From positions 94 to 64,093 of the forward strand of contig CAZJZI010000008.1 of NCBI GenBank assembly GCA_964550435.1: a stretch of DNA of 64,000 bases, read 5' to 3'. Numbering within the stretch: position 1 is the stretch's first letter; each line of letters begins with the position of its first letter. Both the position numbers and the translations under genes were made by a program. Origin of the DNA: an uncultured Chitinophagales bacterium (GTDB lineage: Bacteria > Bacteroidota > Rhodothermia > Balneolales > HLUCCA01). Positions 45,707 through 55,248 of the stretch are shown here, piece by piece. The notes under the pieces were generated by a model. That model saw only the letters and a list, made by a program, of their open reading frames with translations, searched no databases and was not told the origin of the DNA.

Positions 45707-47779
45707 TCAATAATTTCTGAGGTAATCAATTGCTTCTCGAATGTCTTTATCGTTTGGAAGTACATAATCTTCCATTGGATCCGCAAAAGGAATATACGAA
45801 TATTTAGCAGCTACTCGCTTAATCGGAGCATCAAGATATTCGAATGCCTTATCGGCGATTTGTGCAGATATTTCAGATCCAAGCCCGATGAATTCCAAAT
45901 CCTCATGTACTACCAACACTTTGTTGGTTTTTCGTACAGATTCTAAAACCATATCCATATCGAGTGGAACAATACTTCTCAGGTCTATAACTTCGATTTC
46001 ATATCCGTCCTTAGCGTACTCCTTAGCCATATTCAAGCTTTTTTGTACCAAGGCACCGTAAGTAACGATAGTAAGATCTTTACCTTCACGAACCATTTTA
46101 CCTTTTCCGATCTCTATGAGATAATCGGCGTCAGGTTCCGGAGAACGCGAAAATCCTTGCCGATACAATGCCTTATGTTCAAGGAACAAAATTGGATCAT
46201 CAGAACGAATTGCTGTTTTGAGAAGTCCCTTAGCATCTGCTGCTGTGCTGGGTAATACAATTTTAAAGCCTGGAATGTGGCCAAATATTGATTCAATGTT
46301 CTGTGAATGGCATAATCCACCGTGAATGTATCCGCCTATTGGAACACGGATAACCATTGGAGCTCCAAAATGATTATGGGATCTGTATCTTAATGATGGA
46401 ACCTGGTTGCGTAACTGCTGCATAGCAGGCCAAATGTAATCACCAAACTGTATCTCAACCACAGGTTTATATCCTTGAATAGCAAGCCCACATGCTGTTC
46501 CAATAATAGATGCTTCGGCTAGTGGTGAATTATAGCAACGATCTGCCCCATACTTCTCGGTAAGCCCTCTGGTAGCAGTAAACACCCCACCTTTACCACC
46601 TGCAACATCCTCTCCGAAGACAATCACCCGCTCGTCACGAGCCATCTCTTCGTCTATGGCATGGTTTATGGCATCAACAATAACAATCGGTTCACCTGTC
46701 GGTTCTGTGGCTTCGTATTCAAGTCCAAGATCTTTCTCAGAATACATAAAGCGAACACCATCTTCCGGTTTTGGATCATCCTGTTTCAAACACCATTCAG
46801 TATCTGCATCAATTTGCTTACGTACTTCTTCCTTGATAATCTGGAGTTCCGTTTCAGTAGCGATCCCATTCTCGATTAATTTTTCTCCCAATTTCAGGAT
46901 AGGGTCGGATAATCTGTCCTCTTCAAGTTCCTCAGGAGTGCGGTATTTCCTGTGATCATCAGAGCTTGAATGTGGTAGTAATCGTACAACATGTGCATGA
47001 ACCAGTGAAGGGCCCTCTCCTGCTCTGGCTCTCTTTACAGCAGCCTGCATAGCTGCATATGAGTTTAAATAGTCCGTACCATCTACTTCAAATATTTGCA
47101 AATTCTGAAATCCACTTACTGACTTGGAAATACTATGATTGCTAGTCTGTTCAGTTATAGGCACACTGATGGCATATTTATTGTCTTGCACAACAACGAT
47201 TAATGGCGCTTTGATTCTAGTTGCCCAATTAATCATTTCGAAGAAGGTACCCTGAGATGTTGCTCCATCACCAAGAGATACATAAGTTACCTCATCATTA
47301 CCATTTCTCATTGTCCCCTGAGCCACTCCAAGGCTTGGAAGGTACTGTGCACCCAGGGCACTTGAAACTGATACGATTCTTAACTCGCTTGAATTAAAGT
47401 GCGAAGGCATCTGTTTACCGTGAGATGTATCTGTAACCTTAGACAAGTGTGCAGAAAGTAAATCCTTGGAGGTCATTCCCAATCCAAGTGCCAGAGACAT
47501 ATCACGATAATATGGAAGTGCCCAGTCCTTCCCAGGTGTCATATTTTTAGCCGCTGCCATTTGAATGGCCTCGTGTCCAGAGCAGCCAATATGAAAAAAA
47601 CCTTTCCCTTGTTTCAGGAGAATAAGCATTTTGTCATCAAGTCGGCGTGACACGTGCATAGTTCGATAGACCTCAAGTAACTCTTCTTTACTGAAGTTCT
47701 TGATGCTCGCTGATCTAATCTTATATTTTGAAGTCGCAGGCACTAGGGACCCTGCTCTAGTTAACGTCTTTTCACTCAT
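45707..47779 (-). CDS. Fused E1 alpha/beta component of a 2-oxoacid (branched-chain-type) dehydrogenase, TPP-dependent
   Basis: 690 aa. The N-terminal half is E1-alpha-like (LEVYRTMHVSRRLDDKM, GDGATSQG). The C-terminal half is E1-beta / transketolase-like (VIVFGEDVAGGKGGVFTATRGL, NSPLAEASIIG). Confidence 0.88.
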   Translation of the reverse strand: MSEKTLTRAGSLVPATSKYKIRSASIKNFSKEELLEVYRTMHVSRRLDDKMLILLKQGKGFFHIGCSGHEAIQMAAAKNMTPGKDWALPYYRDMSLALGLGMTSKDLLSAHLSKVTDTSHGKQMPSHFNSSELRIVSVSSALGAQYLPSLGVAQGTMRNGNDEVTYVSLGDGATSQGTFFEMINWATRIKAPLIVVVQDNKYAISVPITEQTSNHSISKSVSGFQNLQIFEVDGTDYLNSYAAMQAAVKRARAGEGPSLVHAHVVRLLPHSSSDDHRKYRTPEELEEDRLSDPILKLGEKLIENGIATETELQIIKEEVRKQIDADTEWCLKQDDPKPEDGVRFMYSEKDLGLEYEATEPTGEPIVIVDAINHAIDEEMARDERVIVFGEDVAGGKGGVFTATRGLTEKYGADRCYNSPLAEASIIGTACGLAIQGYKPVVEIQFGDYIWPAMQQLRNQVPSLRYRSHNHFGAPMVIRVPIGGYIHGGLCHSQNIESIFGHIPGFKIVLPSTAADAKGLLKTAIRSDDPILFLEHKALYRQGFSRSPEPDADYLIEIGKGKMVREGKDLTIVTYGALVQKSLNMAKEYAKDGYEIEVIDLRSIVPLDMDMVLESVRKTNKVLVVHEDLEFIGLGSEISAQIADKAFEYLDAPIKRVAAKYSYIPFADPMEDYVLPNDKDIREAIDYLRNY

Positions 47780-47821: not shown

Positions 47822-47859
47822 CAAAAATACAGTTTTTCGTTTGTTCTTACAAACGAAAA
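47822..47859 (-). terminator. Hairpin terminator after the GNAT-like gene
   Basis: Perfect 11-bp stem TTTTCGTTTGT/ACAAACGAAAA (47834..47859) with a 4-nt loop. The minus strand continues ACUGUAUUUUUGG. Confidence 0.6.
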
Positions 47860-47902: not shown

Positions 47903-49054
47903 TTATTGTTTTTTATAAACGCGATATTTCTTTTCTTCAATAGCACCAAGTCTTACAGCGACATTTATCATGCTCGTGTTGGTTTCGAGTAACCAGCTCA
48001 ATTCAGATGAACTGAAACCACGACGGATACCATTCATGACACTCCGTTGGTGCATCATTGTATCGATACCTTTACCTTGCCATTCAGGAAGAACTCCCAT
48101 TAGAGCAGTTCTGATTTGACGAATTTTATTTTTGTAGTAGAGTAATTTAAATATTCCAAATGGGAACAATCTTCCACCCATTTTTTTAAACACCTGATTC
48201 ATGTCAGGTAATGATATTGAAAATGCGACTGGTTGTCCATCAACTTCGGCAATATGGGCAAAGTCAACATCTATGATCATCTTGAGTTCCTTAACAAGAT
48301 AATCGAACTCTGCTTCAGAAACCGGAGCGAATCCCCAGTTCTTTGCCCACGCTTTGTTAAATATGTCACGAATGACGACTGCTTCAGATTTTAGATTCTT
48401 CAAATTCACATCTCTGATTACCAAATTCGGAAGCCGTCTCTTAACGATTTCGTCTGCACGGTTAATTTTGTCTTTATCCAGATGTACTTCATCTATTCTG
48501 AAAGCCAATAGATCTACTTTTTTCTCGTATCCAGCTGCTTGGATTAGTTTATCGTAATATGGATAATTATATGGCATCATCAGTCCGGGCTCTTTATCAA
48601 ACCCTTCAATTAGCACACCAATCTCACCCATCATACTTGGGCTAAATGGACCATAAATGGTTTTTAGTCCTTTATTCTTAAACCAACCTTCGGCTACTTT
48701 AAATAGTAAATTTGCGACTTGCTGATTATCAATACACTCGAAAAATCCAAAAAAACCGGCTTCTTCATTATTAAACCGATTGAATGCCTTATTGTGTATC
48801 GCGGCTATCCTACCTGCAGGTTTTCCATTAAACTCCGCTACGAATAGTGCCATTTCAGCATCTTTGAAAAAAGGATGATGCTGGGTATCCAGAATCTCTT
48901 TTTGTTGGATTCTGAGTGGAGGAATCCATTGTTCTGCATCTTTGTAAAGCAGATATGGAAACTCTATAAACTTTTTGAAATCTTTTTTGTCGGCTACGAT
49001 AGTAACACTGCTTTGAGAAGGTACTATATCGTTTTTAGCGGCAAAAGATGCCAT
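47903..49054 (-). CDS. GNAT-like acyl-CoA N-acyltransferase (candidate bacterial ceramide synthase-type enzyme)
   Basis: 383 aa. The C-terminal region (GQPVAFSISL .. LMGVLPEWQGKGIDTMMH .. ELSWLLETN) has the GNAT Q/RxxGxG/A acyl-CoA loop. Its start shares one nt with the stop of the upstream AOS gene (TGATG). Confidence 0.65.
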   Translation of the reverse strand: MASFAAKNDIVPSQSSVTIVADKKDFKKFIEFPYLLYKDAEQWIPPLRIQQKEILDTQHHPFFKDAEMALFVAEFNGKPAGRIAAIHNKAFNRFNNEEAGFFGFFECIDNQQVANLLFKVAEGWFKNKGLKTIYGPFSPSMMGEIGVLIEGFDKEPGLMMPYNYPYYDKLIQAAGYEKKVDLLAFRIDEVHLDKDKINRADEIVKRRLPNLVIRDVNLKNLKSEAVVIRDIFNKAWAKNWGFAPVSEAEFDYLVKELKMIIDVDFAHIAEVDGQPVAFSISLPDMNQVFKKMGGRLFPFGIFKLLYYKNKIRQIRTALMGVLPEWQGKGIDTMMHQRSVMNGIRRGFSSSELSWLLETNTSMINVAVRLGAIEEKKYRVYKKQ

Positions 49055-50295
49055 CAGGCTTCAATCAAAGAGTGACCGTTACTATCGATAATTCCGTGTT
49101 TGATACCAACTTTTTTGAACGCATCCAGAATGAAATCCAGTTGATCGTTGGTATGTGTAGCACTATAGCTGGTTCTAACCAAAGACTGACCACGAGGTAC
49201 GGCAGGTGGTACTACTGCATTGACATAGACACCTGACTCGAACAAGTCTTTCCAGAACTGAAAGCATTTGAACATCTCCCCAATTACAACAGGTATGATA
49301 GGTGTTTGAGAAGTCCACATATTGAAACCTAATTGACTCAAACCGGATCTCATGTAATCAGATATCTCTTTGAGCCTATCCAGTCTCCAGGTTTCTTCCT
49401 GAAGTATTTCAAGCGCTTTAAGTACAGTTGCTACATTTGCAGGAGGCATTGATGCACTAAAAATATGTGCAGGAGAAACGTGTCTTATATATTCGATCAC
49501 TTTGTAATCTCCAACAAGGAAACCACCTAGAGACGCAAAAGACTTGGAAAAGGTCCCACTTATTAGATCCACATCATCGAGTAATCCGAATGCTGATGCT
49601 GAACCACGTCCGGCTTCACCAATTACCCCGATAGCGTGTGCATCATCCAGATATAGACGGGCGCCGAATTCTTTGGCTAAAGAAACAAGTTCAGGAATGT
49701 TGGCAAGTGCACCTGACATTGAAAACACACCATCACTGACAATAATCTTACCAACTTTCGGATCTTCTCTCTCGAGTAGTTTACGAAGATGATCCATGTC
49801 GTTATGAGTAAATCTGACTGTCTTTGCCGCTGAACAAAGAGTACCCACTACAATACATGCATGGTTGTCTTTATCAGAAAAAATTACATCATTTCGACCT
49901 GCAATAGTTTGTATTGAACCCTCATTGGTCTGATACCCTGTACTGAACAAAACACACGCTTCTTTTCTCATGAATACTGCGAGTTTTTCTTCAAGTTCAA
50001 GGTGAATATCAAGTGTACCATTCAGATAACGCGACCCGGTACATCCAGATCCATATTTCAAAATAGCAGCACGGGCAGCCTCAAGTACCCGTGGATCGTT
50101 TGTCAATCCAAGGTAATTATTAGATCCGGCCATGATTACTTCACGCCCTTCAATCTTCACAACGGTACCATCGGTGGCCGTAAGTGGTTTGAAATAGGGA
50201 TATAATCCCGAAGCTCTTACTTCTTCAGCTTTAGTGAATTCGTAGGCTTTATTGAAAATGTCGTTTGGTCTTACACCCGTTTGTGGATTGGCCAT
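49054..50295 (-). CDS. PLP-dependent alpha-oxoamine synthase, serine palmitoyltransferase-like
   Basis: 413 aa with LYPYFKPL, NNYLGLTNDPRV, GSGCTGSRYLNGTLDIH, DDAHAIG, SGTFSKSFASLGGF (PLP lysine) and LYVNAVVPPAVPRGQSLVRTSYSATHT. The GSRxLNGT version resembles Spt/CFAT rather than BioF or Kbl. Confidence 0.8.
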   Translation of the reverse strand: MANPQTGVRPNDIFNKAYEFTKAEEVRASGLYPYFKPLTATDGTVVKIEGREVIMAGSNNYLGLTNDPRVLEAARAAILKYGSGCTGSRYLNGTLDIHLELEEKLAVFMRKEACVLFSTGYQTNEGSIQTIAGRNDVIFSDKDNHACIVVGTLCSAAKTVRFTHNDMDHLRKLLEREDPKVGKIIVSDGVFSMSGALANIPELVSLAKEFGARLYLDDAHAIGVIGEAGRGSASAFGLLDDVDLISGTFSKSFASLGGFLVGDYKVIEYIRHVSPAHIFSASMPPANVATVLKALEILQEETWRLDRLKEISDYMRSGLSQLGFNMWTSQTPIIPVVIGEMFKCFQFWKDLFESGVYVNAVVPPAVPRGQSLVRTSYSATHTNDQLDFILDAFKKVGIKHGIIDSNGHSLIEA

Positions 50296-50332
50296 CCTAA
50301 ATAATTCTAGACTTTACGTTAATTTAATGTTA

Positions 50333-50363
50333 CAAATATAGGTAGTATTCACTTGCAATCAAA
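50333..50363 (-). promoter_or_regulatory. Candidate Bacteroidota-type promoter (TTTG-N19-TATATTTG) for the AOS/GNAT pair
   Basis: The minus strand reads cATTTG-attgcaagtgaatactacc-TATATTTG. That is a -33 TTTG, a 19-nt spacer and a -7 TAnnTTTG box, with the -7 box ending 37 nt upstream of the ATG at 50295. Confidence 0.45.
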
Positions 50364-50385
50364 TGCTGTTAACAGCTCAAATTCG

Positions 50386-51513
50386 TCATTTTCTTGATTC
50401 GCAAACCTGGACTAAATAATCTGTGTATCGAGTTGCAACCTTTTCCCATGTAAAATTATCAAACACATACGATTTACAACTTTCCGAAAGTTCTGTTATG
50501 TCGGAGGAGAGTAATTCATTTATAACTGATGCAAACCTGGAAAAATCTCCAACGGCAATTTTATATCCGTTCTTACCGTCAGTAATTACATCTTTTATAC
50601 CTTCTAAGTCAGAAGCAACAACAGGAGTTCCCAAAAGATTCGCTTCAAGCATCACTACACCAAAACCTTCCATATCTCCTGGTACAACTATGTTGGGCAT
50701 GACAAACAAATCTGAGGCACAATATGAGATATTTAATACTTCATCTGGCTGTTTTCCAAGCAGATAAACACTCTTTTCTACTTTCAGATCAGCTATTGCT
50801 TTTTGAATCGACTGTCGTTCGGGTCCGTCACCAAGAATTAGATATACTACATTATCTCCTAATCGTGGTATTACATTAGTAATAAACCATGCATGTCCCT
50901 TTCTCTTTACCAATCTACCGGTAGTCAAAATGATCTTTTTATTCTCAAGATCCCTGCCAATGAGTCGACCTATCGATTTTCGAGCTTCTGTTTTATTACA
51001 ATCGCCAACATTGAAATCATCGGGTGAGAATCCATTTGGAATTGCTACCCCTTTTTCGGGTATCATTCCACGATCAATACATGCTTGCCGAGTAGCGCGA
51101 CTAACGCTTATGACCCCATCTAGTGCACTAAATATCTTGGGTACGTACTTTTGATAAAAGTAAACCGGCAATGTTACGTCCTGACCGTGGTTAATAGTGA
51201 CCATAGGCACGTTGATGCGCTTTCTCAAAAAGGGTGCCAGAGCTGCCGTCACCATCGAAGAAAAAAGGACAACATCGGGTTTGAAAGCTTCTACTTTTGA
51301 AGGTAATTCAACCAGGTTTTTGAGCAAAAACTTGGTGGTAGATAATCCAATATTACCCCATTCGGCTTCCAACTTAATGGTCTCAATAGTTACGTTTGGA
51401 TTTCGTTTTAATGTTTCAACCAGTTGCAGGCTAACACGTTGCATGCCACCCATGTTCTTCAAAGGTGCGTCAAACGGTGGATGTAAATGCGTCAAATAAA
51501 GAATCTTAAGCAT
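50386..51513 (-). CDS. Family-4 (GT-B) glycosyltransferase
   Basis: 375 aa with RLVKRKG and MEGFGVVMLEANLLGTPVVASDLEGIKDVITDGKNGY (EX7E motif). Confidence 0.85.
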   Translation of the reverse strand: MLKILYLTHLHPPFDAPLKNMGGMQRVSLQLVETLKRNPNVTIETIKLEAEWGNIGLSTTKFLLKNLVELPSKVEAFKPDVVLFSSMVTAALAPFLRKRINVPMVTINHGQDVTLPVYFYQKYVPKIFSALDGVISVSRATRQACIDRGMIPEKGVAIPNGFSPDDFNVGDCNKTEARKSIGRLIGRDLENKKIILTTGRLVKRKGHAWFITNVIPRLGDNVVYLILGDGPERQSIQKAIADLKVEKSVYLLGKQPDEVLNISYCASDLFVMPNIVVPGDMEGFGVVMLEANLLGTPVVASDLEGIKDVITDGKNGYKIAVGDFSRFASVINELLSSDITELSESCKSYVFDNFTWEKVATRYTDYLVQVCESRK

Positions 51514-52664
51514 TACCCTCTTGTGGATTTAAACATTTCTATAGCTTCGTTATAGTTACAAACAAGTTGTGAAAAAATTTGGTCCCAGGTAAATCTGGAA
51601 GCAAACTCGATGGCGTTCCTTCCCATTTGTTTTCGTAGATTCTCGTCATGAGATAACAATAAAATTCTGTCAATAAACTCATTCTCATCTTTTGGAGTGA
51701 CCAGGAATCCGTTGTAACCATGGTCCACTAATGATCTGTTTCCCTGGGCATTCGCAACCACAACTGGAACTCCACTGGCCTGCGCCTCAAGGGTCACATT
51801 TCCAAATGTCTCGGTAATGGAAGGGAACATAAAAACATCACTACTTGCGTAGATTCGGGCAAGATTCTCACCTTTTTGATAACCAACGAAACAAGTGTTT
51901 GGCATAGTCGACCTAAGTTCATCACCTGCTGGACCTTCACCAACTATAACAGTTTTGATTTTAGGATTCCGTTTGTGAAGTTCATTAAATACTGCTCGGA
52001 GAGTCCTCATTTCTTTTTCCCAAACAAGTCGGGAAACAAAACTAACTACCACATCATCTTTTTGAATACCATTATCAGTTCGCCACTCCTCATCTCTTTT
52101 CGTAGGATTAAACGCGTCAGGTTCTATACCTCTAGCCCAAATTCTGAGGCCGTCCCGAATTCCATGTTTTGCTAGCCCCGTAATCATAGATTCTGACGGG
52201 ACGTACGTATGCACGCAGTTGCCGTAGAAAAAACGAAGATACGCCCACAATGCTGGTTCAAGCAGACTCATTTTATAGTATTCCAGATAACTGGAAAAAT
52301 GAGTGTGATAGGATGAGACTACTGCATAATTTCGATCTATAGAGAACATTAATGCCTGCAAACCCGTGTAATCAGGTGTAGCTATGTGAACAAGATTTGG
52401 ATTAAAATGAGCAATTTCATTCTTGATCTTATCGGTCAAACCCAATCCAATTCTGTATTCTGCTCGCCCAGGCATAGCATAAGATGGAATAGCAATCAAT
52501 TTTCCTGCATGCTTAATTGGCGGATTATCGATGGTTGGTGCAACTATTAATACATCATGCCCATGGGACTCCAGATATCGGACAAGTCGATTTAACGTTA
52601 ATGAAACACCATCCGGCACATGGTTGTAATTACCCGTTACTAATACTATTCTGAGTTTGTTCAT
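51513..52664 (-). CDS. Family-4 glycosyltransferase, lipid-glycosyltransferase-like (SqdX / glycosyl-DAG synthase-like N-terminus)
   Basis: It has RIVLVTGNYNHVPDGVSLTLNRLVRYLESHGHDVLIVAP and ETFGNVTLEAQASGVPVVVANAQGNRSLVDHGYNGF. The track start at 52742 is a TTG; the ATG at 52664 (MNKLRIV) is preferred. Its stop overlaps the next start (TAATG). Confidence 0.85.
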   Translation of the reverse strand: MNKLRIVLVTGNYNHVPDGVSLTLNRLVRYLESHGHDVLIVAPTIDNPPIKHAGKLIAIPSYAMPGRAEYRIGLGLTDKIKNEIAHFNPNLVHIATPDYTGLQALMFSIDRNYAVVSSYHTHFSSYLEYYKMSLLEPALWAYLRFFYGNCVHTYVPSESMITGLAKHGIRDGLRIWARGIEPDAFNPTKRDEEWRTDNGIQKDDVVVSFVSRLVWEKEMRTLRAVFNELHKRNPKIKTVIVGEGPAGDELRSTMPNTCFVGYQKGENLARIYASSDVFMFPSITETFGNVTLEAQASGVPVVVANAQGNRSLVDHGYNGFLVTPKDENEFIDRILLLSHDENLRKQMGRNAIEFASRFTWDQIFSQLVCNYNEAIEMFKSTRG

Positions 52665-52678
52665 TTTAACTATGTGAA

Positions 52679-52705
52679 CACGTAAAATGATGCTTATTTT
52701 ACGTG
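52679..52705. promoter_or_regulatory. Perfect 10-bp inverted repeat in the divergent control region (operator candidate)
   Basis: CACGTAAAAT (52679..52688), 7 nt, ATTTTACGTG (52696..52705). It lies 15 nt upstream of the GT4 start and 52 nt upstream of the SDR start. Confidence 0.4.
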
Positions 52706-52756
52706 AAATATGAGCTCCGAAAGCGGTTTGCACAAACTTCAAATATACGAAATATT

Positions 52757-53728
52757 ATGAAAGCCTTTATTACCGGAGGAACGGGATTTATTGGGAGTCA
52801 TTTGGTTGACCAACTGATCAAAGAGGGGGATCATGAACTAAGATGCATGGTCCGAAATAATGAAAAATGGCTTGAAGGAAAAGACTACAAAAAAATTACA
52901 TGTGACCTTAACGATATTTCAGCACTTCAAAAAGCAATGGACGGTGTAGATGTCGTTTTTCATCTTGCAGGTGTTGTGAAAGCAAAGGAGACACGTATTT
53001 TTGAAAGAGTAAATGTGGAAGGAACCGAAAATCTGTTGCGGGTTGCTCAAAAATTAAGTATTCCAAAAATTATCATTTCATCATCACAGGCCGCCGCTGG
53101 ACCAAGTTATAATGAACCTATTTCTGAGGATGACGAAATGATGCCTGTGAGTCGTTATGGTGAGTCTAAAATGCGCATGGAGAACATGATCCATAAAATT
53201 GCTGATCAGTCACAACAAGTTACAATTATCAGACCATCATCAGTCTATGGTCCACGGGAAGAGGATATCTACACGTTTTTCAAAGTAGCTTCCAAAGGTA
53301 TTTGTCCGATTATTGGTCGTGGACATGGCAAGTCGATATCTATGGCACATGTTAATGACATTGTAGATGGGATATTGCTTGCGGCTAAACATGAGCATAC
53401 TGGCGTAAGAACATATTTTTTGTCCAGTGAACGTGGTTATAACTGGCACGAAATACGCGATGCAACATCAAATGCATTGGGCAAAAAACTATTAACGATT
53501 AATGTACCTGCCAGAATGGTGAAATCGGTCGGAAAAATTACTGAGAAAACAGCATCATTTTTTGGCAATTATCCCGTTATGAATGAAGACAAAGCTCGTG
53601 AGATGGTTCTTTCTTGGGTATGCTCGGTAGACAGAGCCATAAAAGAATTGGGATTCAAACAAAAAATCGACTTGAACGAAGGTATTCATAACACAATAAA
53701 TTGGTATAAGCGACATAACTGGCTTTAA
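52757..53728 (+). CDS. NAD(P)-dependent epimerase/dehydratase-family extended SDR
   Basis: It has the Rossmann motif MKAFITGGTGFIGSHL at the N-terminus and the catalytic YGESK. The track start at 52703 is a GTG; the ATG at 52757 is preferred. Confidence 0.85.
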   Translation: MKAFITGGTGFIGSHLVDQLIKEGDHELRCMVRNNEKWLEGKDYKKITCDLNDISALQKAMDGVDVVFHLAGVVKAKETRIFERVNVEGTENLLRVAQKLSIPKIIISSSQAAAGPSYNEPISEDDEMMPVSRYGESKMRMENMIHKIADQSQQVTIIRPSSVYGPREEDIYTFFKVASKGICPIIGRGHGKSISMAHVNDIVDGILLAAKHEHTGVRTYFLSSERGYNWHEIRDATSNALGKKLLTINVPARMVKSVGKITEKTASFFGNYPVMNEDKAREMVLSWVCSVDRAIKELGFKQKIDLNEGIHNTINWYKRHNWL

Positions 53729-53730
53729 AC

Positions 53731-55248
53731 ATGATTAAACTCAAGGTATTCTTTCTACTTATCGCAGGTATATTCTCAAATGATGCGATCGCACAAACAA
53801 CGATAGTAGCTTCACCGCAGAGCGTTAATCGGATTCCCGATCTGATTTCAATCAGTTCAAGTGCAACACACCTTTACGTATTATCAGAATCTGATGGTTT
53901 AATTGTATATCGAACCAACACCGACACATTACAGTATATTTTCACCTCCGAAGGTATGCAGCAACGTGGTCATACTTTGGTATCAGATGTCAGATTTGCC
54001 TATCAATTTGGACAAGGAAACAGGATAACGGTGATCGAACCTACTTCCCTACTTGGTGTGTATTCGTCTACCAATTTACCAAATGACCCACTTTCAGTAT
54101 CAAGGGTTGCAACGACACTATACATAGCCACTGGGTCTGGTGGACTTCTTTCGTTACCATTAGATTCTCCATCTGCTTTTGATACCGAACCTGTTATTGT
54201 AACTATTCCTGGTAATAATGCAGCTGTTATTGATCTCATTTCAGTTTCAAACAGATTCTATGCATTACTCGAAAACGGAAATCTTGCAGAGTTTTCGATC
54301 AGTGGTGACGATATCAAGTTCCTACAAATACTTGTAACTGGCATTTCAGAAGCAAAACGCCTACATCAGGTTGATGGACAGCTTCACGCCAGTGACAATC
54401 TAGGTAACCTTTACATTCTTCAATCAAGTGGCGATGCAAGATTAAAAACCGAATTTGATTCTCCCATATCCAAAATCGATCGCTGGAATGATATTTACAT
54501 TGTTCGTACAGAATCCGGACAATTATTTAGGATGGAGCCAAATGGTAGAAAAACCACATTACTTAGTGAAACGAATAATGGAAATCATTTTGCCATAGCT
54601 GATAATTCATTGTGGATTGCCACCTATGACCTTCTGGCTAGGTATACTATTACTACTCAAAGACCAGGTACCACCGTACTAGCCAACTCCGGGCGCCTAA
54701 GTTTCAGCCCGATACCTAATCAAATCATTACAATCCCAAGAGCTGTCTTACTTCCCTTGGAAACAAGCGGTGTAAAACCCAATGAAGTCCGATTTCAAAT
54801 AGAGAGTGACGTTAATAATGCAGAAATCCGAGGCAATGGATTCTATTGGCAACCCAGTTTGAGTCAAACTGGTATTCACCAGTTTAGCATCAATGCAATT
54901 TCATCAAATGGACAAACAGTCAGGCAATCATTCACGGTAGATGTCAGATCATTTAACTCACCGCCAAGGTTCAACCCTACAAGACCAATTACTATTTCAG
55001 TCGAGGAGAATTTTACCCTTCCAATAAAAGCAATTGACCCGGATGGCGTAGATCAGGATCTTATACGATATCACGGAGTAGATTTACCAGAAGGTTCATC
55101 GATTAGTGAAAGAACTGGAATGTTTAGCTGGACACCGGACAGAAGACAGGTTGGAGACCACGAATTCCGTGTAATTGCTACCGATCAGTTTGGTGCTGCT
55201 ACTTCACAAACCGTATCCATAACTGTTCGAAACCTGAATCGAAACTAA
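53731..55248 (+). CDS. Secreted protein: beta-propeller-like repeats + two cadherin-like/putative-Ig (He_PIG-like) domains
   Basis: 505 aa with a signal peptide (FFLLIAGIFSNDAIAQ). Repeats include THLYVLSESDGLIVYR, TTLYIATGSGGLLSL and DIYIVRTESGQLFRM. The C-terminal segments FYWQPSLSQTGIHQFSINA and FSWTPDRRQVGDHEFRVIATDQFG are typical of putative-Ig domains. Confidence 0.72.
   Translation: MIKLKVFFLLIAGIFSNDAIAQTTIVASPQSVNRIPDLISISSSATHLYVLSESDGLIVYRTNTDTLQYIFTSEGMQQRGHTLVSDVRFAYQFGQGNRITVIEPTSLLGVYSSTNLPNDPLSVSRVATTLYIATGSGGLLSLPLDSPSAFDTEPVIVTIPGNNAAVIDLISVSNRFYALLENGNLAEFSISGDDIKFLQILVTGISEAKRLHQVDGQLHASDNLGNLYILQSSGDARLKTEFDSPISKIDRWNDIYIVRTESGQLFRMEPNGRKTTLLSETNNGNHFAIADNSLWIATYDLLARYTITTQRPGTTVLANSGRLSFSPIPNQIITIPRAVLLPLETSGVKPNEVRFQIESDVNNAEIRGNGFYWQPSLSQTGIHQFSINAISSNGQTVRQSFTVDVRSFNSPPRFNPTRPITISVEENFTLPIKAIDPDGVDQDLIRYHGVDLPEGSSISERTGMFSWTPDRRQVGDHEFRVIATDQFGAATSQTVSITVRNLNRN

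What the first reader, a model, noticed from the sequence alone, without database searches (positions are those of the whole stretch)
47903..53728. Candidate glycosphingolipid (ceramide) biosynthesis locus: Spt-like synthase + GNAT acyltransferase + two GT4s + divergent SDR
Seen in sequence:
- GT4 (51513..52664) and GT4 (50386..51513) overlap by 1 nt.
- After a 90-nt spacer with a good promoter match, an alpha-oxoamine synthase (49054..50295) and a 383-aa GNAT-like protein (47903..49054) again overlap by 1 nt. They end at an 11-bp hairpin.
- An extended SDR (52757..53728) diverges from the same 92-bp control region.
- The synthase carries GSGCTGSRYLNGT, the PLP-lysine motif TFSKS and an LYPYFKPL N-terminus. 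These resemble bacterial serine palmitoyltransferase or cysteate acyltransferase rather than BioF or Kbl. No bio or tdh genes are adjacent.
- The larger GT4 has an N-terminus like lipid glycosyltransferases (SqdX / glycosyl-DAG synthase type).

Established knowledge: bacterial ceramide synthesis, worked out in Caulobacter crescentus and also found in Bacteroidota, uses Spt, an epimerase/dehydratase-family reductase (CerR) and a GNAT-type N-acyltransferase (bCerS). Caulobacter adds sugars with two glycosyltransferases (Sgt1/Sgt2).

Inference: all five enzyme classes are co-localised here, which would make this a compact glycosphingolipid operon pair in an FCB-group organism. A sulfonolipid (capnine-type) or a glycosylated N-acyl amino lipid are alternative products.
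Basis: partly seen in the sequence, partly recalled or inferred. Interest (0 to 1): 0.72.

Follow-up and report, generated by a model that had tools for sequence, protein, structure and literature searches.

The report
Balneolales ceramide operon with two glycosyltransferases
This locus encodes the three core enzymes of bacterial ceramide synthesis, with two lipid-type glycosyltransferases inserted among them, so this Balneolales bacterium very probably makes a sphingolipid and probably a glycosylated one; it is a good but unsurprising new example of a known pathway.

Summary

- **Synthase (49054..50295):** it sits in the serine palmitoyltransferase clade. It is 50.5% identical, without gaps, to Sphingobacterium multivorum SPT, and the active-site residues are conserved. 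It is far from Kbl, BioF and cysteate acyltransferase.
- **"GNAT" (47903..49054):** it is a tandem-GNAT protein of the YghO family. The literature equates this family with Caulobacter CC_1154, the bacterial ceramide synthase.
- **SDR (52757..53728):** it belongs to an SDR family found beside Spt and the GNAT in many phyla. That family also captures the proteobacterial CerR orthologues.
- **Synteny:** the SDR | Spt-GNAT triad recurs in 28 of 54 non-Balneolales loci, and natural Spt-GNAT fusions exist.
- **GT4 genes:** Balneolales alone carry a GT4 pair inserted between the SDR and Spt (21 of 21 loci with enough flank). A GT4a-like gene follows the triad independently in two Gemmatimonadota-like contigs.

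The ceramide core is well supported. Glycosylation of the ceramide rests on gene context and GT4 family precedent only.

The sigma-70 "promoter match" is not above chance.

Verdict: a new member of a known kind, of moderate interest. It gives a testable identity for the "unidentified glycolipids" reported in Balneolaceae.

The parts
47834..47859 (-). Terminator-like hairpin (11-bp stem, 4-nt loop, T-rich tail) ending the GT4a-GT4b-Spt-bCerS transcription unit
   Evidence: It lies 44 nt after the GNAT stop codon and before the next gene, the E1 dehydrogenase.
47903..49054 (-). bCerS-like N-acyltransferase (YghO family, tandem GNAT fold), 383 aa. Predicted to N-acylate the long-chain base.
   Evidence: 38% identity to E. 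coli YghO and 34% (E 2e-72) to the Sphingomonas cerS-position GNAT. YghO = CC_1154 orthologue (PMC9386255). AF2 model pLDDT 80.7 with a tandem-GNAT fold. Natural fusions to Spt exist. CoA-loop motif QGKGID at residues 326-331.
49054..50295 (-). Serine palmitoyltransferase-like alpha-oxoamine synthase, 413 aa; its stop codon shares one base with the bCerS start (ATGA)
   Evidence: NCBIfam best hit is SerpalmtaseCFB at 493.5 bits, below the curated cutoff of 640. PDB S. multivorum SPT scores 417 bits, with 50.5% gapless identity. Of 14 active-site residues, 12 are identical, including Lys251, His145, Asp217 and His220. Clade support.
50296..50385 (-). 90-nt spacer between GT4b and Spt. It has no terminator-like site and contains TATATTTG at 50333..50340, about 38 nt upstream of the Spt ATG.
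   Evidence: Whether this is an internal promoter is inference only.
50386..51513 (-). GT4b, a retaining GT-B glycosyltransferase of 375 aa. Predicted to add the second sugar.
   Evidence: Pfam Glycos_transf_1 / Glyco_transf_4. EX7E motif at 282-290. Nearest solved relatives are a BshA-type protein and PimB', at 49-58 bits. It is replaced by a non-orthologous GT4 in Gracilimonas.
51513..52664 (-). GT4a, a lipid-type retaining glycosyltransferase of 383 aa. Predicted to add the first sugar to ceramide.
   Evidence: Full-length matches to alpha-monoglucosyl-DAG synthase (95.6 bits), GlcN-PG synthase (136 bits) and PimA (62.7 bits). EX7E motif at 285-293. Present in every Balneolales locus with enough flank. 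A GT4a-like gene follows SDR-Spt-bCerS in L051 and L089.
52665..52756 (.). 92-bp divergent intergenic region between GT4a and the SDR; contains TATATTTG at 52740..52747 on the GT4a strand
   Evidence: The divergent SDR | operon arrangement is the commonest layout of the triad in other phyla.
52757..53728 (+). CerR-like extended SDR, 323 aa. Predicted 3-keto reductase of the (acylated) long-chain base.
   Evidence: Pfam Epimerase/3Beta_HSD. GGTGFIG and Y134-x3-K138 motifs. 358.6 bits against the HMM of Spt/bCerS-linked SDRs, which also scores the proteobacterial CerR orthologues at 186-189 bits. 25-30% identity to those and to the SDR overlapping a Spt-bCerS fusion gene.

Best explanation
This is a ceramide (sphingolipid) biosynthesis locus of the bacterial Spt / bCerS / CerR type, in a Balneolales bacterium.

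**Proposed mechanism**
1. The Spt-like PLP enzyme condenses L-serine with a fatty acyl-CoA, probably iso-branched, to give 3-ketodihydrosphingosine. No dedicated ACP or acyl-ACP synthetase gene is present, as in the Bacteroidota-type SPTs.
2. The translationally coupled YghO-family tandem-GNAT protein N-acylates the base.
3. The divergently transcribed extended SDR reduces the 3-keto group to give dihydroceramide.
4. The two GT4 retaining glycosyltransferases lie upstream of Spt on the same strand and were inserted into the triad in the Balneolales lineage. They most likely add one and then a second alpha-linked sugar to the ceramide, giving a mono- or di-glycosyl ceramide.

**Shown versus inferred**
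- Shown: family membership of the three core enzymes, their conserved linkage, and fusion of two of them.
- Inferred: the substrates, the order of acylation and reduction, and the acceptor of the GT4s.

My confidence in the ceramide core is about 0.85. My confidence that the GT4s act on the ceramide is about 0.6.
For: **Spt**
- Best NCBIfam model is SerpalmtaseCFB at 493.5 bits, against 373-385 for BioF/Kbl models.
- 417 bits and a gapless 382-residue alignment to S. multivorum SPT. Kbl/BioF score about 290 and cysteate acyltransferases 221-227.
- 12 of 14 active-site residues described for that enzyme (PMC10196870) are identical, and the other 2 are conservative.
- NJ clade support is 84% and 89%.

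**bCerS**
- Full-length homology to E. coli YghO, and to the GNAT next to lptF/lptG in a Sphingomonas CerR-ACP-Spt cluster.
- YghO is listed as the CC_1154 orthologue.
- Spt-GNAT fusion proteins exist: P0213/L003, L058 and P0266.
- The model has a tandem-GNAT fold.

**CerR**
- Linked-SDR HMM scores: window 358.6 bits, E. coli CerR orthologue 188.5, Sphingomonas 186.1, unlinked SDRs 123 or less. The best curated NCBIfam hit for each is only HpnA, at 142, 93 and 83 bits.
- An SDR gene overlaps the fusion gene in L003.

**Synteny**
- 33 of 54 non-Balneolales loci have Spt next to the GNAT, and 28 also have the SDR within 4 kb.

**GT4s**
- 21 of 21 Balneolales loci with enough flank have SDR(-) | GT4a ... 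Spt-GNAT(+).
- A GT4a-like gene lies directly after SDR-Spt-GNAT in L051 and L089.
- In other phyla the gene linked to the triad is a PAP2 head-group-type gene (11 loci, between the SDR and the GNAT in the Acidobacteriota ones). This fits head-group enzymes being recruited next to the triad.
- The known bacterial ceramide glycosyltransferases are GT4 enzymes related to MGlcDAG synthases and PimA (PMC9692976), which matches GT4a's hit profile.
- Cultured Balneolaceae have unidentified glycolipids on TLC.
Against: - The Spt score is below NCBI's curated equivalog cutoff (493.5 < 640), so exact substrate specificity is not guaranteed.
- SDR identity to the genetically defined proteobacterial CerR orthologues is only 25-26%, which is ordinary for extended SDRs. 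The family link rests on HMM scores and synteny.
- Caulobacter CerR is reported to be periplasmic (PMC11087976), yet this SDR starts directly with its Rossmann motif.
- The whole 20-kb neighbourhood is syntenic within Balneolaceae (MutY, Ig-domain protein, fumarase). Conservation of the GT4s inside the family therefore proves little on its own.
- GT4 similarity to any characterised enzyme is weak (136 bits or less), and no comparison with Sgt1/Sgt2, BF9343_3149 or Z. mobilis Cer-GlcAT could be made.
- 17 of 54 YghO-family loci have no Spt nearby, so the family may not be exclusively ceramide synthase.
- No lipid data exist for this organism.
Confidence: 0.68

Rival explanations
1. The ceramide core is real, but the two GT4s are passengers. 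They would glycosylate another acceptor (diacylglycerol, a polyprenyl-linked glycan, LPS core, or a small molecule as BshA and MshA do). Balneolales would then make plain or phospho-ceramides from this locus.
For: - GT4a's best family hits are glycerolipid enzymes: GlcN-PG synthase 136 bits, MGlcDAG synthase 96 bits, PimA.
- GT4b's best hits are BshA and TuaC-like.
- Of the 54 non-Balneolales genome-scan loci, only L051 carries a GT4 homologue next to the triad; L089, from a separate contig look-up, is a second case.
- Synteny within Balneolaceae extends far beyond the locus.
- A possible separate promoter motif precedes Spt.
Against: - The GT4s sit inside the triad, between the SDR and Spt, on the Spt strand, with no terminator-like site before Spt.
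- A GT4a-like gene follows the triad independently in L051 and L089.
- PAP2 head-group-type genes are linked to the triad in other phyla.
- The characterised ceramide glycosyltransferases are themselves GT4 enzymes that resemble DAG glycosyltransferases.
Confidence: 0.24
2. The locus makes a non-canonical sphingoid lipid: a sulfonolipid (capnine type, from cysteate), or a 1-deoxy or glycine-derived base, which is then acylated and glycosylated.
For: - The Spt score is below the curated SPT cutoff.
- Sulfonolipids occur in Bacteroidota (PMC9304779).
- S. multivorum SPT can also use Ala and Gly, poorly (PMC10196870).
Against: - Solved cysteate acyltransferases score about half as much as SPT (221-227 vs 417 bits).
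- The residues that contact the serine substrate in S. multivorum SPT (Asn52, Gly80/Ser81, His138, Thr241, Ser243) are all conserved.
- The characterised SPT nests inside the same clade.
- None of the ORFs examined between about 43 and 61 kb of the window looks like a cysteate synthase.
Confidence: 0.06
3. The synthase is a housekeeping Kbl or BioF, and the GNAT and SDR are unrelated acetyltransferase and sugar epimerase genes. The clustering would be fortuitous.
For: Kbl and BioF models still score 373-385 bits. Pfam sees only generic families.
Against: - There are no tdh or bio genes nearby.
- The clade placement argues against it.
- Fusion proteins exist.
- The triad recurs in many phyla.
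- The start and stop codons overlap, which suggests translational coupling.
Confidence: 0.02

Closest known systems
Bacterial ceramide pathway Spt / bCerS (CC_1154, YghO) / CerR (CC_1164) of Caulobacter crescentus, Sphingomonas and E. coli B-type strains
   Same: The same three enzyme families are present. The GNAT is 34-38% identical over its full length to the YghO/cerS-position proteins. The SDR falls in the same HMM-defined family as the CerR orthologues. The genes are clustered.
   Different: - There is no dedicated ACP (AcpR) or acyl-ACP synthetase (AasR), and no LptF2/G2 copies.
- The Spt is of the Bacteroidota/delta-proteobacterial subgroup, not the alpha/beta/gamma one (36-40% identity).
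- Here bCerS shares one base (stop/start overlap) with Spt. PMC11324152 appears to say (the passage retrieved is cut off) that proteobacterial cerS always sits in a different operon.
- Glycosyltransferases are inside the locus, whereas Caulobacter sgt1/sgt2 lie elsewhere in the genome.
Sphingobacterium multivorum serine palmitoyltransferase (PDB 3A2B, 8GUH)
   Same: 50.5% identity with no gaps over 382 residues. The PLP-binding and serine-binding residues are conserved. It is a soluble, acyl-CoA-using type.
   Different: It is below NCBIfam's equivalog cutoff. In Bacteroidota the spt, bCerS and cerR genes are reported to be dispersed (PMC11334938), whereas here they are contiguous.
Bacterial ceramide glycosyltransferases: B. 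fragilis alpha-GalCer synthase BF9343_3149, Z. mobilis Cer-GlcAT, Caulobacter Sgt1/Sgt2
   Same: BF9343_3149 and Z. mobilis Cer-GlcAT, like GT4a and GT4b, are retaining GT4 enzymes with the GT-B fold. GT4a and GT4b have the EX7E motif (DX7E in BF9343_3149). They resemble MGlcDAG synthases and PimA. Two sequential enzymes, as with Sgt1 then Sgt2 (whose GT family I could not check).
   Different: The sugar donor and the acceptor are unknown. The second GT4 is swapped or supplemented in some genera (Gracilimonas, L021).
Sulfonolipid (capnine) pathway: cysteate acyltransferase CFAT/SulA plus reductase
   Same: It begins with an alpha-oxoamine synthase and includes a reductase step, and it occurs in Bacteroidota (FCB group).
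   Different: CFAT structures score only 221-227 bits, against 417 for SPT. No cysteate synthase is nearby. The GNAT partner is the ceramide-synthase family.

Membership tests
Serine palmitoyltransferase (bacterial, Bacteroidota/CFB type) | Fold-type I PLP alpha-oxoamine synthase with the catalytic Lys, stacking His and Asp/His PLP ligands | tested here: met
   Pfam Aminotran_1_2, 183.6 bits. Lys251, His145, Asp217 and His220 align with Lys244, His138, Asp210 and His213 of S. multivorum SPT.
Serine palmitoyltransferase (bacterial, Bacteroidota/CFB type) | Falls in the SPT clade, not in Kbl, BioF, ALAS or CFAT | tested here: met
   NJ tree: clade with S. multivorum SPT and GNAT-linked synthases at 84% bootstrap, and all SPT versus Kbl/BioF at 89%. 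phmmer scores: 417 bits (SPT), about 290 (Kbl/BioF), 221-227 (CFAT), about 200-213 (ALAS). CFAT and ALAS were not in the tree itself.
Serine palmitoyltransferase (bacterial, Bacteroidota/CFB type) | Reaches NCBIfam's curated equivalog score (NF047600, 640 bits) | tested here: not met
   493.5 bits. It is the best-scoring model by more than 100 bits but is sub-threshold. I therefore call it SPT-like / SPT-clade, not a certified equivalog.
Serine palmitoyltransferase (bacterial, Bacteroidota/CFB type) | Condenses L-serine with long-chain acyl-CoA | not testable with these tools
   Needs an enzyme assay. The residues contacting serine are conserved.
Bacterial ceramide synthase bCerS (CC_1154 / YghO family) | Full-length sequence homology to CC_1154 orthologues | tested here: met
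   38% identity over 95% of its length to E. coli YghO (E 9e-65). 34% identity, E 2e-72, to the Sphingomonas parapaucimobilis cerS-position GNAT. YghO/ECD_02850 and Swit_3908 are listed with CC_1154 in PMC9386255. CC_1154 itself was not available for comparison.
Bacterial ceramide synthase bCerS (CC_1154 / YghO family) | GNAT-superfamily acyl-CoA N-acyltransferase fold | tested here: met
   AF2 model with pLDDT 80.7. Top Foldseek hits are tandem-GNAT proteins (7q3a, 5kf1, 2wpw, MshD), probability 1.0. Pfam Acetyltransf_1 at residues 229-370.
Bacterial ceramide synthase bCerS (CC_1154 / YghO family) | Genomic association with spt and cerR | tested here: met
   Stop/start overlap with Spt here. 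Adjacent to Spt in 33 of 54 non-Balneolales loci, and fused to it in at least 3 proteins.
Bacterial ceramide synthase bCerS (CC_1154 / YghO family) | N-acylates 3-ketosphinganine or sphinganine | not testable with these tools
   Needs biochemistry or genetics.
Ceramide reductase CerR (CC_1164 family) | Extended SDR with N-terminal GxxGxxG and a catalytic YxxxK | tested here: met
   GGTGFIG at residues 7-13 and Y134-GES-K138. Pfam Epimerase, 125.8 bits.
Ceramide reductase CerR (CC_1164 family) | Specific relationship to CC_1164 orthologues rather than to other SDRs | tested here: inconclusive
   Pairwise identity is only 25-26%. However, an HMM of Spt/bCerS-linked SDRs scores the window SDR at 358.6 bits and the E. 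coli and Sphingomonas CerR orthologues at 188.5 and 186.1. Unlinked SDRs score 123 or less, and the best NCBIfam hit for each is HpnA at 83-142 bits. This supports the link but is not a full phylogeny with outgroups.
Ceramide reductase CerR (CC_1164 family) | Linked to spt and bCerS | tested here: met
   Divergent from the operon here. Within 4 kb of the GNAT in 29 of 54 non-Balneolales loci. Overlaps the Spt-bCerS fusion gene in L003.
Ceramide glycosyltransferases (GT4: alpha-GalCer synthase, Cer-GlcAT; Sgt1/Sgt2) | Retaining GT4 enzyme with GT-B fold and EX7E motif | tested here: met
   Pfam Glyco_transf_4 plus Glycos_transf_1 for both proteins. EX7E at 285-293 in GT4a and 282-290 in GT4b.
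Ceramide glycosyltransferases (GT4: alpha-GalCer synthase, Cer-GlcAT; Sgt1/Sgt2) | Sequence orthology to a characterised ceramide glycosyltransferase | not tested
Ceramide glycosyltransferases (GT4: alpha-GalCer synthase, Cer-GlcAT; Sgt1/Sgt2) | Uses ceramide as acceptor | not testable with these tools
   Only context supports it: insertion inside the triad in 21 of 21 Balneolales loci, and a GT4a-like gene after the triad in L051 and L089.
Cysteate acyltransferase / sulfonolipid pathway | The synthase is closest to CFAT/SulA | tested here: not met
   28eh scores 226.9 bits and 7u7h 220.7 bits, against 416.9 for SPT.
Kbl / BioF | Clusters with Kbl or BioF and is linked to tdh or bio genes | tested here: not met
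   It lies outside those clades, and there are no tdh or bio genes in the neighbourhood.

The most novel reading that the evidence does not exclude
Balneolales make a di- or tri-glycosyl ceramide as a regular membrane glycolipid from one self-contained five-gene locus. This lipid would be the 'unidentified glycolipids' seen on TLC in Fodinibius and Gracilimonas species descriptions. GT4a would define a previously unrecognised family of ceramide glycosyltransferases that was recruited next to the Spt-bCerS-CerR triad independently in Balneolales and in Gemmatimonadota (Longimicrobiaceae). The second GT4 position would be swapped between genera to vary the head group.
Probability: 0.45. Interest if true: 0.5.

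Novelty: new member of a known kind. Interest (0 to 1): 0.4.

Why it matters
- **Extends the known pathway.** Bacterial sphingolipids were long thought rare. The Spt/bCerS/CerR pathway was defined only in 2021-2022, and metagenomic surveys now predict it in dozens of phyla. This locus adds Balneolales, which are abundant in saline and marine sediments. None of the papers returned by my searches of the library reported sphingolipids in this group.
- **Offers a compact test system.** The locus has five contiguous genes and needs no dedicated ACP. That suits heterologous reconstitution of a complete bacterial glycosphingolipid pathway.
- **Gives candidate head-group enzymes.** The comparison shows the triad acting as a core module to which lineage-specific head-group enzymes attach: GT4s in Balneolales and Gemmatimonadota, and PAP2 proteins in Acidobacteriota and others. 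These are concrete candidates for head-group enzymes that are mostly unknown in bacteria.
- **Limit.** None of this overturns current understanding.

Tried and rejected
- **Primary paper.** I used their E. coli and Sphingomonas orthologues, identified from annotation plus PMC9386255.
- **NCBIfam.** It has no model for bCerS/YghO or CerR. The window GNAT, E. coli YghO and the Sphingomonas GNAT all give 0 hits. Absence of a hit there means nothing.
- **PDB sequence search with the GNAT.** It gave only noise (E 0.5-0.8). Fold search gave generic tandem GNATs and no ceramide synthase structure.
- **First genome scan.** The less diverse A3 worked.
- **Exact-sequence look-ups.** Look-ups of the window GNAT and of P0292 found no contig on record, so the source genome was not pinned down beyond Balneolales.
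- **Homologue search with GT4a.** It returned only Balneolales orthologues of 50% identity or more. That gave no view of distant relatives. I used the L051 GT4 fragment instead.
- **Gemmatimonadota-like GT4 contexts.** Of the three new contigs looked up (L088-L090), only L089 carries the triad; with L051 from the genome scan that makes two such contexts.
- **Sigma-70 promoter scan.** Not above chance.
- **First tree script.** It timed out. The first bootstrap count was wrong because the E. coli kbl and bioF loci were mislabelled as ingroup. This was corrected.
- **Sulfonolipid, Kbl/BioF and N-acyl-amino-acid-lipid readings.** Considered and rejected on the scores and context described above.

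Full report
**1. Observation**

The ORF table confirms the anatomy. On the minus strand:
- GT4a, 51513..52664. The ATG start is favoured because most of the listed homologues are roughly 374-388 aa.
- GT4b, 50386..51513, sharing base 51513 with GT4a.
- A 90-nt spacer.
- The alpha-oxoamine synthase (AOS), 49054..50295.
- A 383-aa GNAT-like gene, 47903..49054, sharing base 49054 with the AOS.
- A terminator-like hairpin with an 11-bp stem and T-tail at 47859..47834.

An extended SDR (52757..53728) diverges across 92 bp. The quoted motifs are present. Pfam confirms the five enzyme classes.

Sigma-70-like sites are at chance level (17 vs 14.1 +/- 3.9). A Bacteroidetes-type -7 motif, TATATTTG, lies on the coding strand in both spacers (50333..50340 and 52740..52747). 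That motif is only marginally enriched in the window (68 vs 56 +/- 7), so I treat it as a lead.

Homologues place the organism in Balneolales (Gracilimonas, Fodinibius/Aliifodinibius and Rhodohalobacter relatives).

**2. The synthase is an SPT-clade enzyme**

- The best NCBIfam model is the Bacteroidota-type serine palmitoyltransferase (NF047600) at 493.5 bits. That is more than 100 bits above the beta-proteobacterial SPT, Kbl and BioF models, but below the curated equivalog cutoff of 640.
- Against PDB sequences, S. multivorum SPT scores 417 bits in a gapless 382-residue alignment. Kbl/BioF score about 290, Sphingomonas SPTs 265-284, and the two solved cysteate acyltransferases 221-227.
- Identity to S. 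multivorum SPT is 50.5%.
- Of 14 active-site residues described for that enzyme (PMC10196870), 12 are identical. These include the PLP lysine, the stacking and carboxylate-anchoring His, and the residues around the serine hydroxyl. The other two changes are conservative.
- In an NJ tree, the window protein groups with the S. multivorum enzyme and with GNAT-linked synthases from many phyla (84% of 200 bootstraps). All SPTs separate from E. coli Kbl, E. coli BioF and the Thermus Kbl/BioF (89%).
For those I rely on the phmmer scores.

**3. The "GNAT" is the bacterial ceramide synthase family**

- Pfam sees only a weak C-terminal Acetyltransf_1 hit. NCBIfam and the PDB sequence search see nothing.
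- The family is nevertheless large: 7745 representatives at E <= 1e-3.
- The AlphaFold model (pLDDT 80.7) is a tandem GNAT, like MshD or MAB_4324.
- The decisive result came from tblastn against annotated plasmid and chromid records.
  - The protein is 38% identical over 95% of its length to E. coli YghO.
  - It is 34% identical (E 2e-72, full length) to an N-acetyltransferase in a Sphingomonas parapaucimobilis replicon.
  - In E. coli PN43, YghO sits beside fatty-acyl-AMP ligase, epimerase-family SDR, ACP, AOS and lptG/lptF.
  - In Sphingomonas, the homologue sits just after lptF/lptG copies and a fatty-acid desaturase gene, about 6 kb from SDR-ACP-SPT.
  - This matches the Caulobacter CC_1165..CC_1154 layout described in PMC11324152.
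  - PMC9386255 explicitly lists "aca: CC_1154, yghO ECD_02850, Swit_3908" and "epi: CC_1164, ECD_02852".
- The GNAT is therefore a member of the bCerS/CerS family.
- Rosetta-stone evidence adds to this. P0213 (780 aa) and P0266 are AOS-GNAT fusions, and L058 carries another. In the P0213 contig, an SDR gene overlaps the fusion gene's start and a PAP2 gene follows it.

**4. The SDR is CerR-like**

- Pairwise identity to the E. coli and Sphingomonas CerR orthologues is 25-26% (E 6e-34 and 5e-28). Identity to the SDR next to the fusion gene is 30% (E 3e-45). Taken alone, that is unremarkable for extended SDRs.
- I therefore built an HMM from 30 SDRs lying within 4 kb of a YghO-family gene in non-Balneolales genomes. 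Scores against it:
  - Window SDR: 358.6 bits.
  - Proteobacterial CerR orthologues: 188.5 and 186.1 bits.
  - Unlinked SDRs in the same loci: 123 bits or less.
- The best curated NCBIfam hit for all three proteins is only HpnA, at 142, 93 and 83 bits.
- The Rossmann motif and YxxxK are present.
- I rate specific CerR membership as supported but not proven.
- Caulobacter CerR is reported to be periplasmic. This protein has no visible signal sequence, and from its alignment neither does the E. coli orthologue. I cannot resolve that point.

**5. Synteny**

A genome scan with a GNAT alignment returned 80 loci.
- **Balneolales (26 loci).** All 21 with at least 5.2 kb of upstream flank, plus two with slightly less, show SDR(-) | GT4a, GT4, AOS, GNAT(+).
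- **Non-Balneolales (54 loci).** These come from Ignavibacteria, Melioribacteraceae, Zixibacteria, Chlorobiota, Planctomycetota, Acidobacteriota, Gemmatimonadota, Eisenbacteria, Chitinophagales, Cytophagia and others.
  - 33 have the AOS adjacent to or fused with the GNAT.
  - 29 have the SDR within 4 kb.
  - 28 have both.
  - 17 have no AOS despite adequate flanks. This agrees with published remarks that the genes are dispersed in some lineages.
- The commonest layout is SDR(-) | AOS-GNAT(+). This is the Balneolales layout minus the GT4s.
- The GT4 pair is thus an insertion into a widely conserved three-gene module.

**6. The glycosyltransferases**

- Both are GT4 enzymes with the EX7E motif.
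- GT4a aligns over its full length with alpha-monoglucosyl-diacylglycerol synthase (95.6 bits), GlcN-PG synthase (136 bits) and PimA (62.7 bits).
- GT4b resembles BshA and PimB'.
- All these scores are far below family cutoffs, so donor and acceptor cannot be read from sequence.
- Three pieces of context favour ceramide as the acceptor:
  - (a) Their position inside the triad, on the Spt strand, with no terminator-like site before Spt.
  - (b) A GT4a-like gene (30-36% identity) follows SDR-AOS-GNAT, 3 nt after the GNAT in L051 (Gemmatimonadetes) and about 0.6 kb after it in L089, where a second GT4 and an LPG_synthase_TM protein follow.
  - (c) In 11 other loci the gene linked to the triad is a PAP2_3/PAP2_C protein, the superfamily of phospho-head-group transferases. 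This suggests lineage-specific head-group genes are recruited next to the core.
- The characterised bacterial ceramide glycosyltransferases, B. fragilis BF9343_3149 and Z. mobilis Cer-GlcAT, are GT4 enzymes that cluster with MGlcDAG synthases and model on PimA (PMC9692976).
- The second GT4 is not fixed. Gracilimonas carries a non-orthologous GT4 there (27% identity over part of the protein). One uncultured Balneolaceae contig has three GT4s. That is what one expects of a variable glycan.
- Species descriptions report unidentified glycolipids and aminolipids in Fodinibius and Gracilimonas. This is compatible with the reading but is not evidence.
- Against: the whole neighbourhood is syntenic inside the family. 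Two of the four Gemmatimonadota-like GT4 contexts examined also lack the triad.

**7. Mechanism and rivals**

- **Best reading (0.68 overall; core about 0.85, glycosylation about 0.6).** Serine plus acyl-CoA gives 3-ketosphinganine (Spt). This is N-acylated (bCerS), its 3-keto group is reduced (CerR-like SDR), and one then two alpha-linked sugars are added (GT4a, GT4b). The order of acylation and reduction follows the Caulobacter model and is inferred.
- **Main rival (0.24).** The same ceramide core, but the GT4s serve another acceptor.
- **Sulfonolipid or deoxy-base variants (0.06).** Disfavoured by the CFAT scores and the conserved serine-contact residues.
- **Housekeeping Kbl/BioF reading.** Effectively excluded.

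**8. Novelty**

The Spt/bCerS/CerR pathway, its clustering, and its wide predicted distribution are already published. This is therefore a new member of a known kind.

What I did not find in the searched literature:
- Sphingolipids in Balneolales. Searches for "Balneol*" with sphingolipid, and "Rhodotherm*" with serine palmitoyltransferase, gave nothing relevant.
- The operonic GT4 insertion.
- The Spt-bCerS fusions.

I could not read Stankeviciute et al. 2022, so some of this may already be noted there.

Interest is moderate (0.4). The locus is a clean, testable five-gene glycosphingolipid candidate and offers a way into bacterial sphingolipid head-group enzymes. It is not a surprise.

Noticed in passing
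L003:10001-12343 (P0213, 780 aa); L058:2795-5101; P0266: Natural single-polypeptide fusions of the Spt-like synthase (N-terminal) with the YghO/bCerS-family GNAT (C-terminal). In L003 an SDR gene overlaps the start of the fusion gene and a PAP2 gene follows it. I did not find these fusions mentioned in the papers I could read.
   Followed up: partly
L045, L047, L053, L056, L057, L059, L061, L070, L078, L079, L083 (e.g. L061:9070-9999): A PAP2_3/PAP2_C protein of about 300 aa is linked to the YghO-family gene in 11 loci from Acidobacteriota, Cloacimonadota, Latescibacterota and others. In the Acidobacteriota loci it sits between the SDR and the GNAT. It is a candidate phospho-head-group transferase for bacterial phosphosphingolipids.
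   Followed up: partly
L034, L035, L036, L037, L040, L042, L054, L076 (e.g. L037:11131-12090): A class IV aminotransferase (Aminotran_4, about 319 aa) lies immediately downstream of the YghO-family GNAT in 8 Ignavibacteria/Chlorobiota-type loci. Half of these have no Spt nearby. In addition, 17 of 54 loci have the GNAT without an adjacent Spt, so the family may have roles beyond ceramide synthesis, or the genes are simply dispersed.
   Followed up: no
window 45707..47779 (-): A 690-aa fused E1 alpha+beta 2-oxoacid dehydrogenase lies directly downstream of the locus, after the hairpin. TATTTTTG sits at 47822..47829, about 43 nt before its ATG. It is the immediate neighbour in some Balneolales (L011, L015, L020, L024, 71-75% identity). 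In others a fumarase intervenes and only a 27-33%-identical E1 hit lies beyond it. It may supply branched-chain acyl-CoA primers; no link to the locus was shown.
   Followed up: no
L001:7374-8543; L021:6302-7477: A third, non-orthologous GT4 type (389-391 aa, 27% identity to GT4b over part of its length) replaces GT4b in Gracilimonas. It co-exists with GT4a and GT4b in one uncultured Balneolaceae contig. This suggests genus-level variation of the predicted glycan.
   Followed up: partly
L089:10615-11166; L090:4591-6849: In Gemmatimonadota-like contigs, the GT4a-like genes are followed by an LPG_synthase_TM (MprF-type flippase-like) protein. In L090 a sulfotransferase-family protein also follows. 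These are possible export and sulfation steps for a glycolipid.
   Followed up: no
L004 (E. coli PN43 record NZ_MG591698.1, 849-19949): A complete proteobacterial-type sphingolipid cluster (acyl-AMP ligase, CerR, ACP, Spt, LptG/LptF copies, YghO) sits next to the glc operon. The record is labelled a 354-kb 'plasmid' but carries chromosomal genes (glcDEFGBA), so it is probably a mis-assigned chromosomal segment.
   Followed up: no
window 53731..55248 (+): A 505-aa predicted secreted protein with a C-terminal He_PIG/Big_9 Ig-like domain begins 3 nt after the SDR stop codon. It is conserved in that position throughout Balneolales (34-46% identity over near-full-length matches), followed by MutY. 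Its function is unknown, and it could be co-transcribed with the SDR.
   Followed up: no
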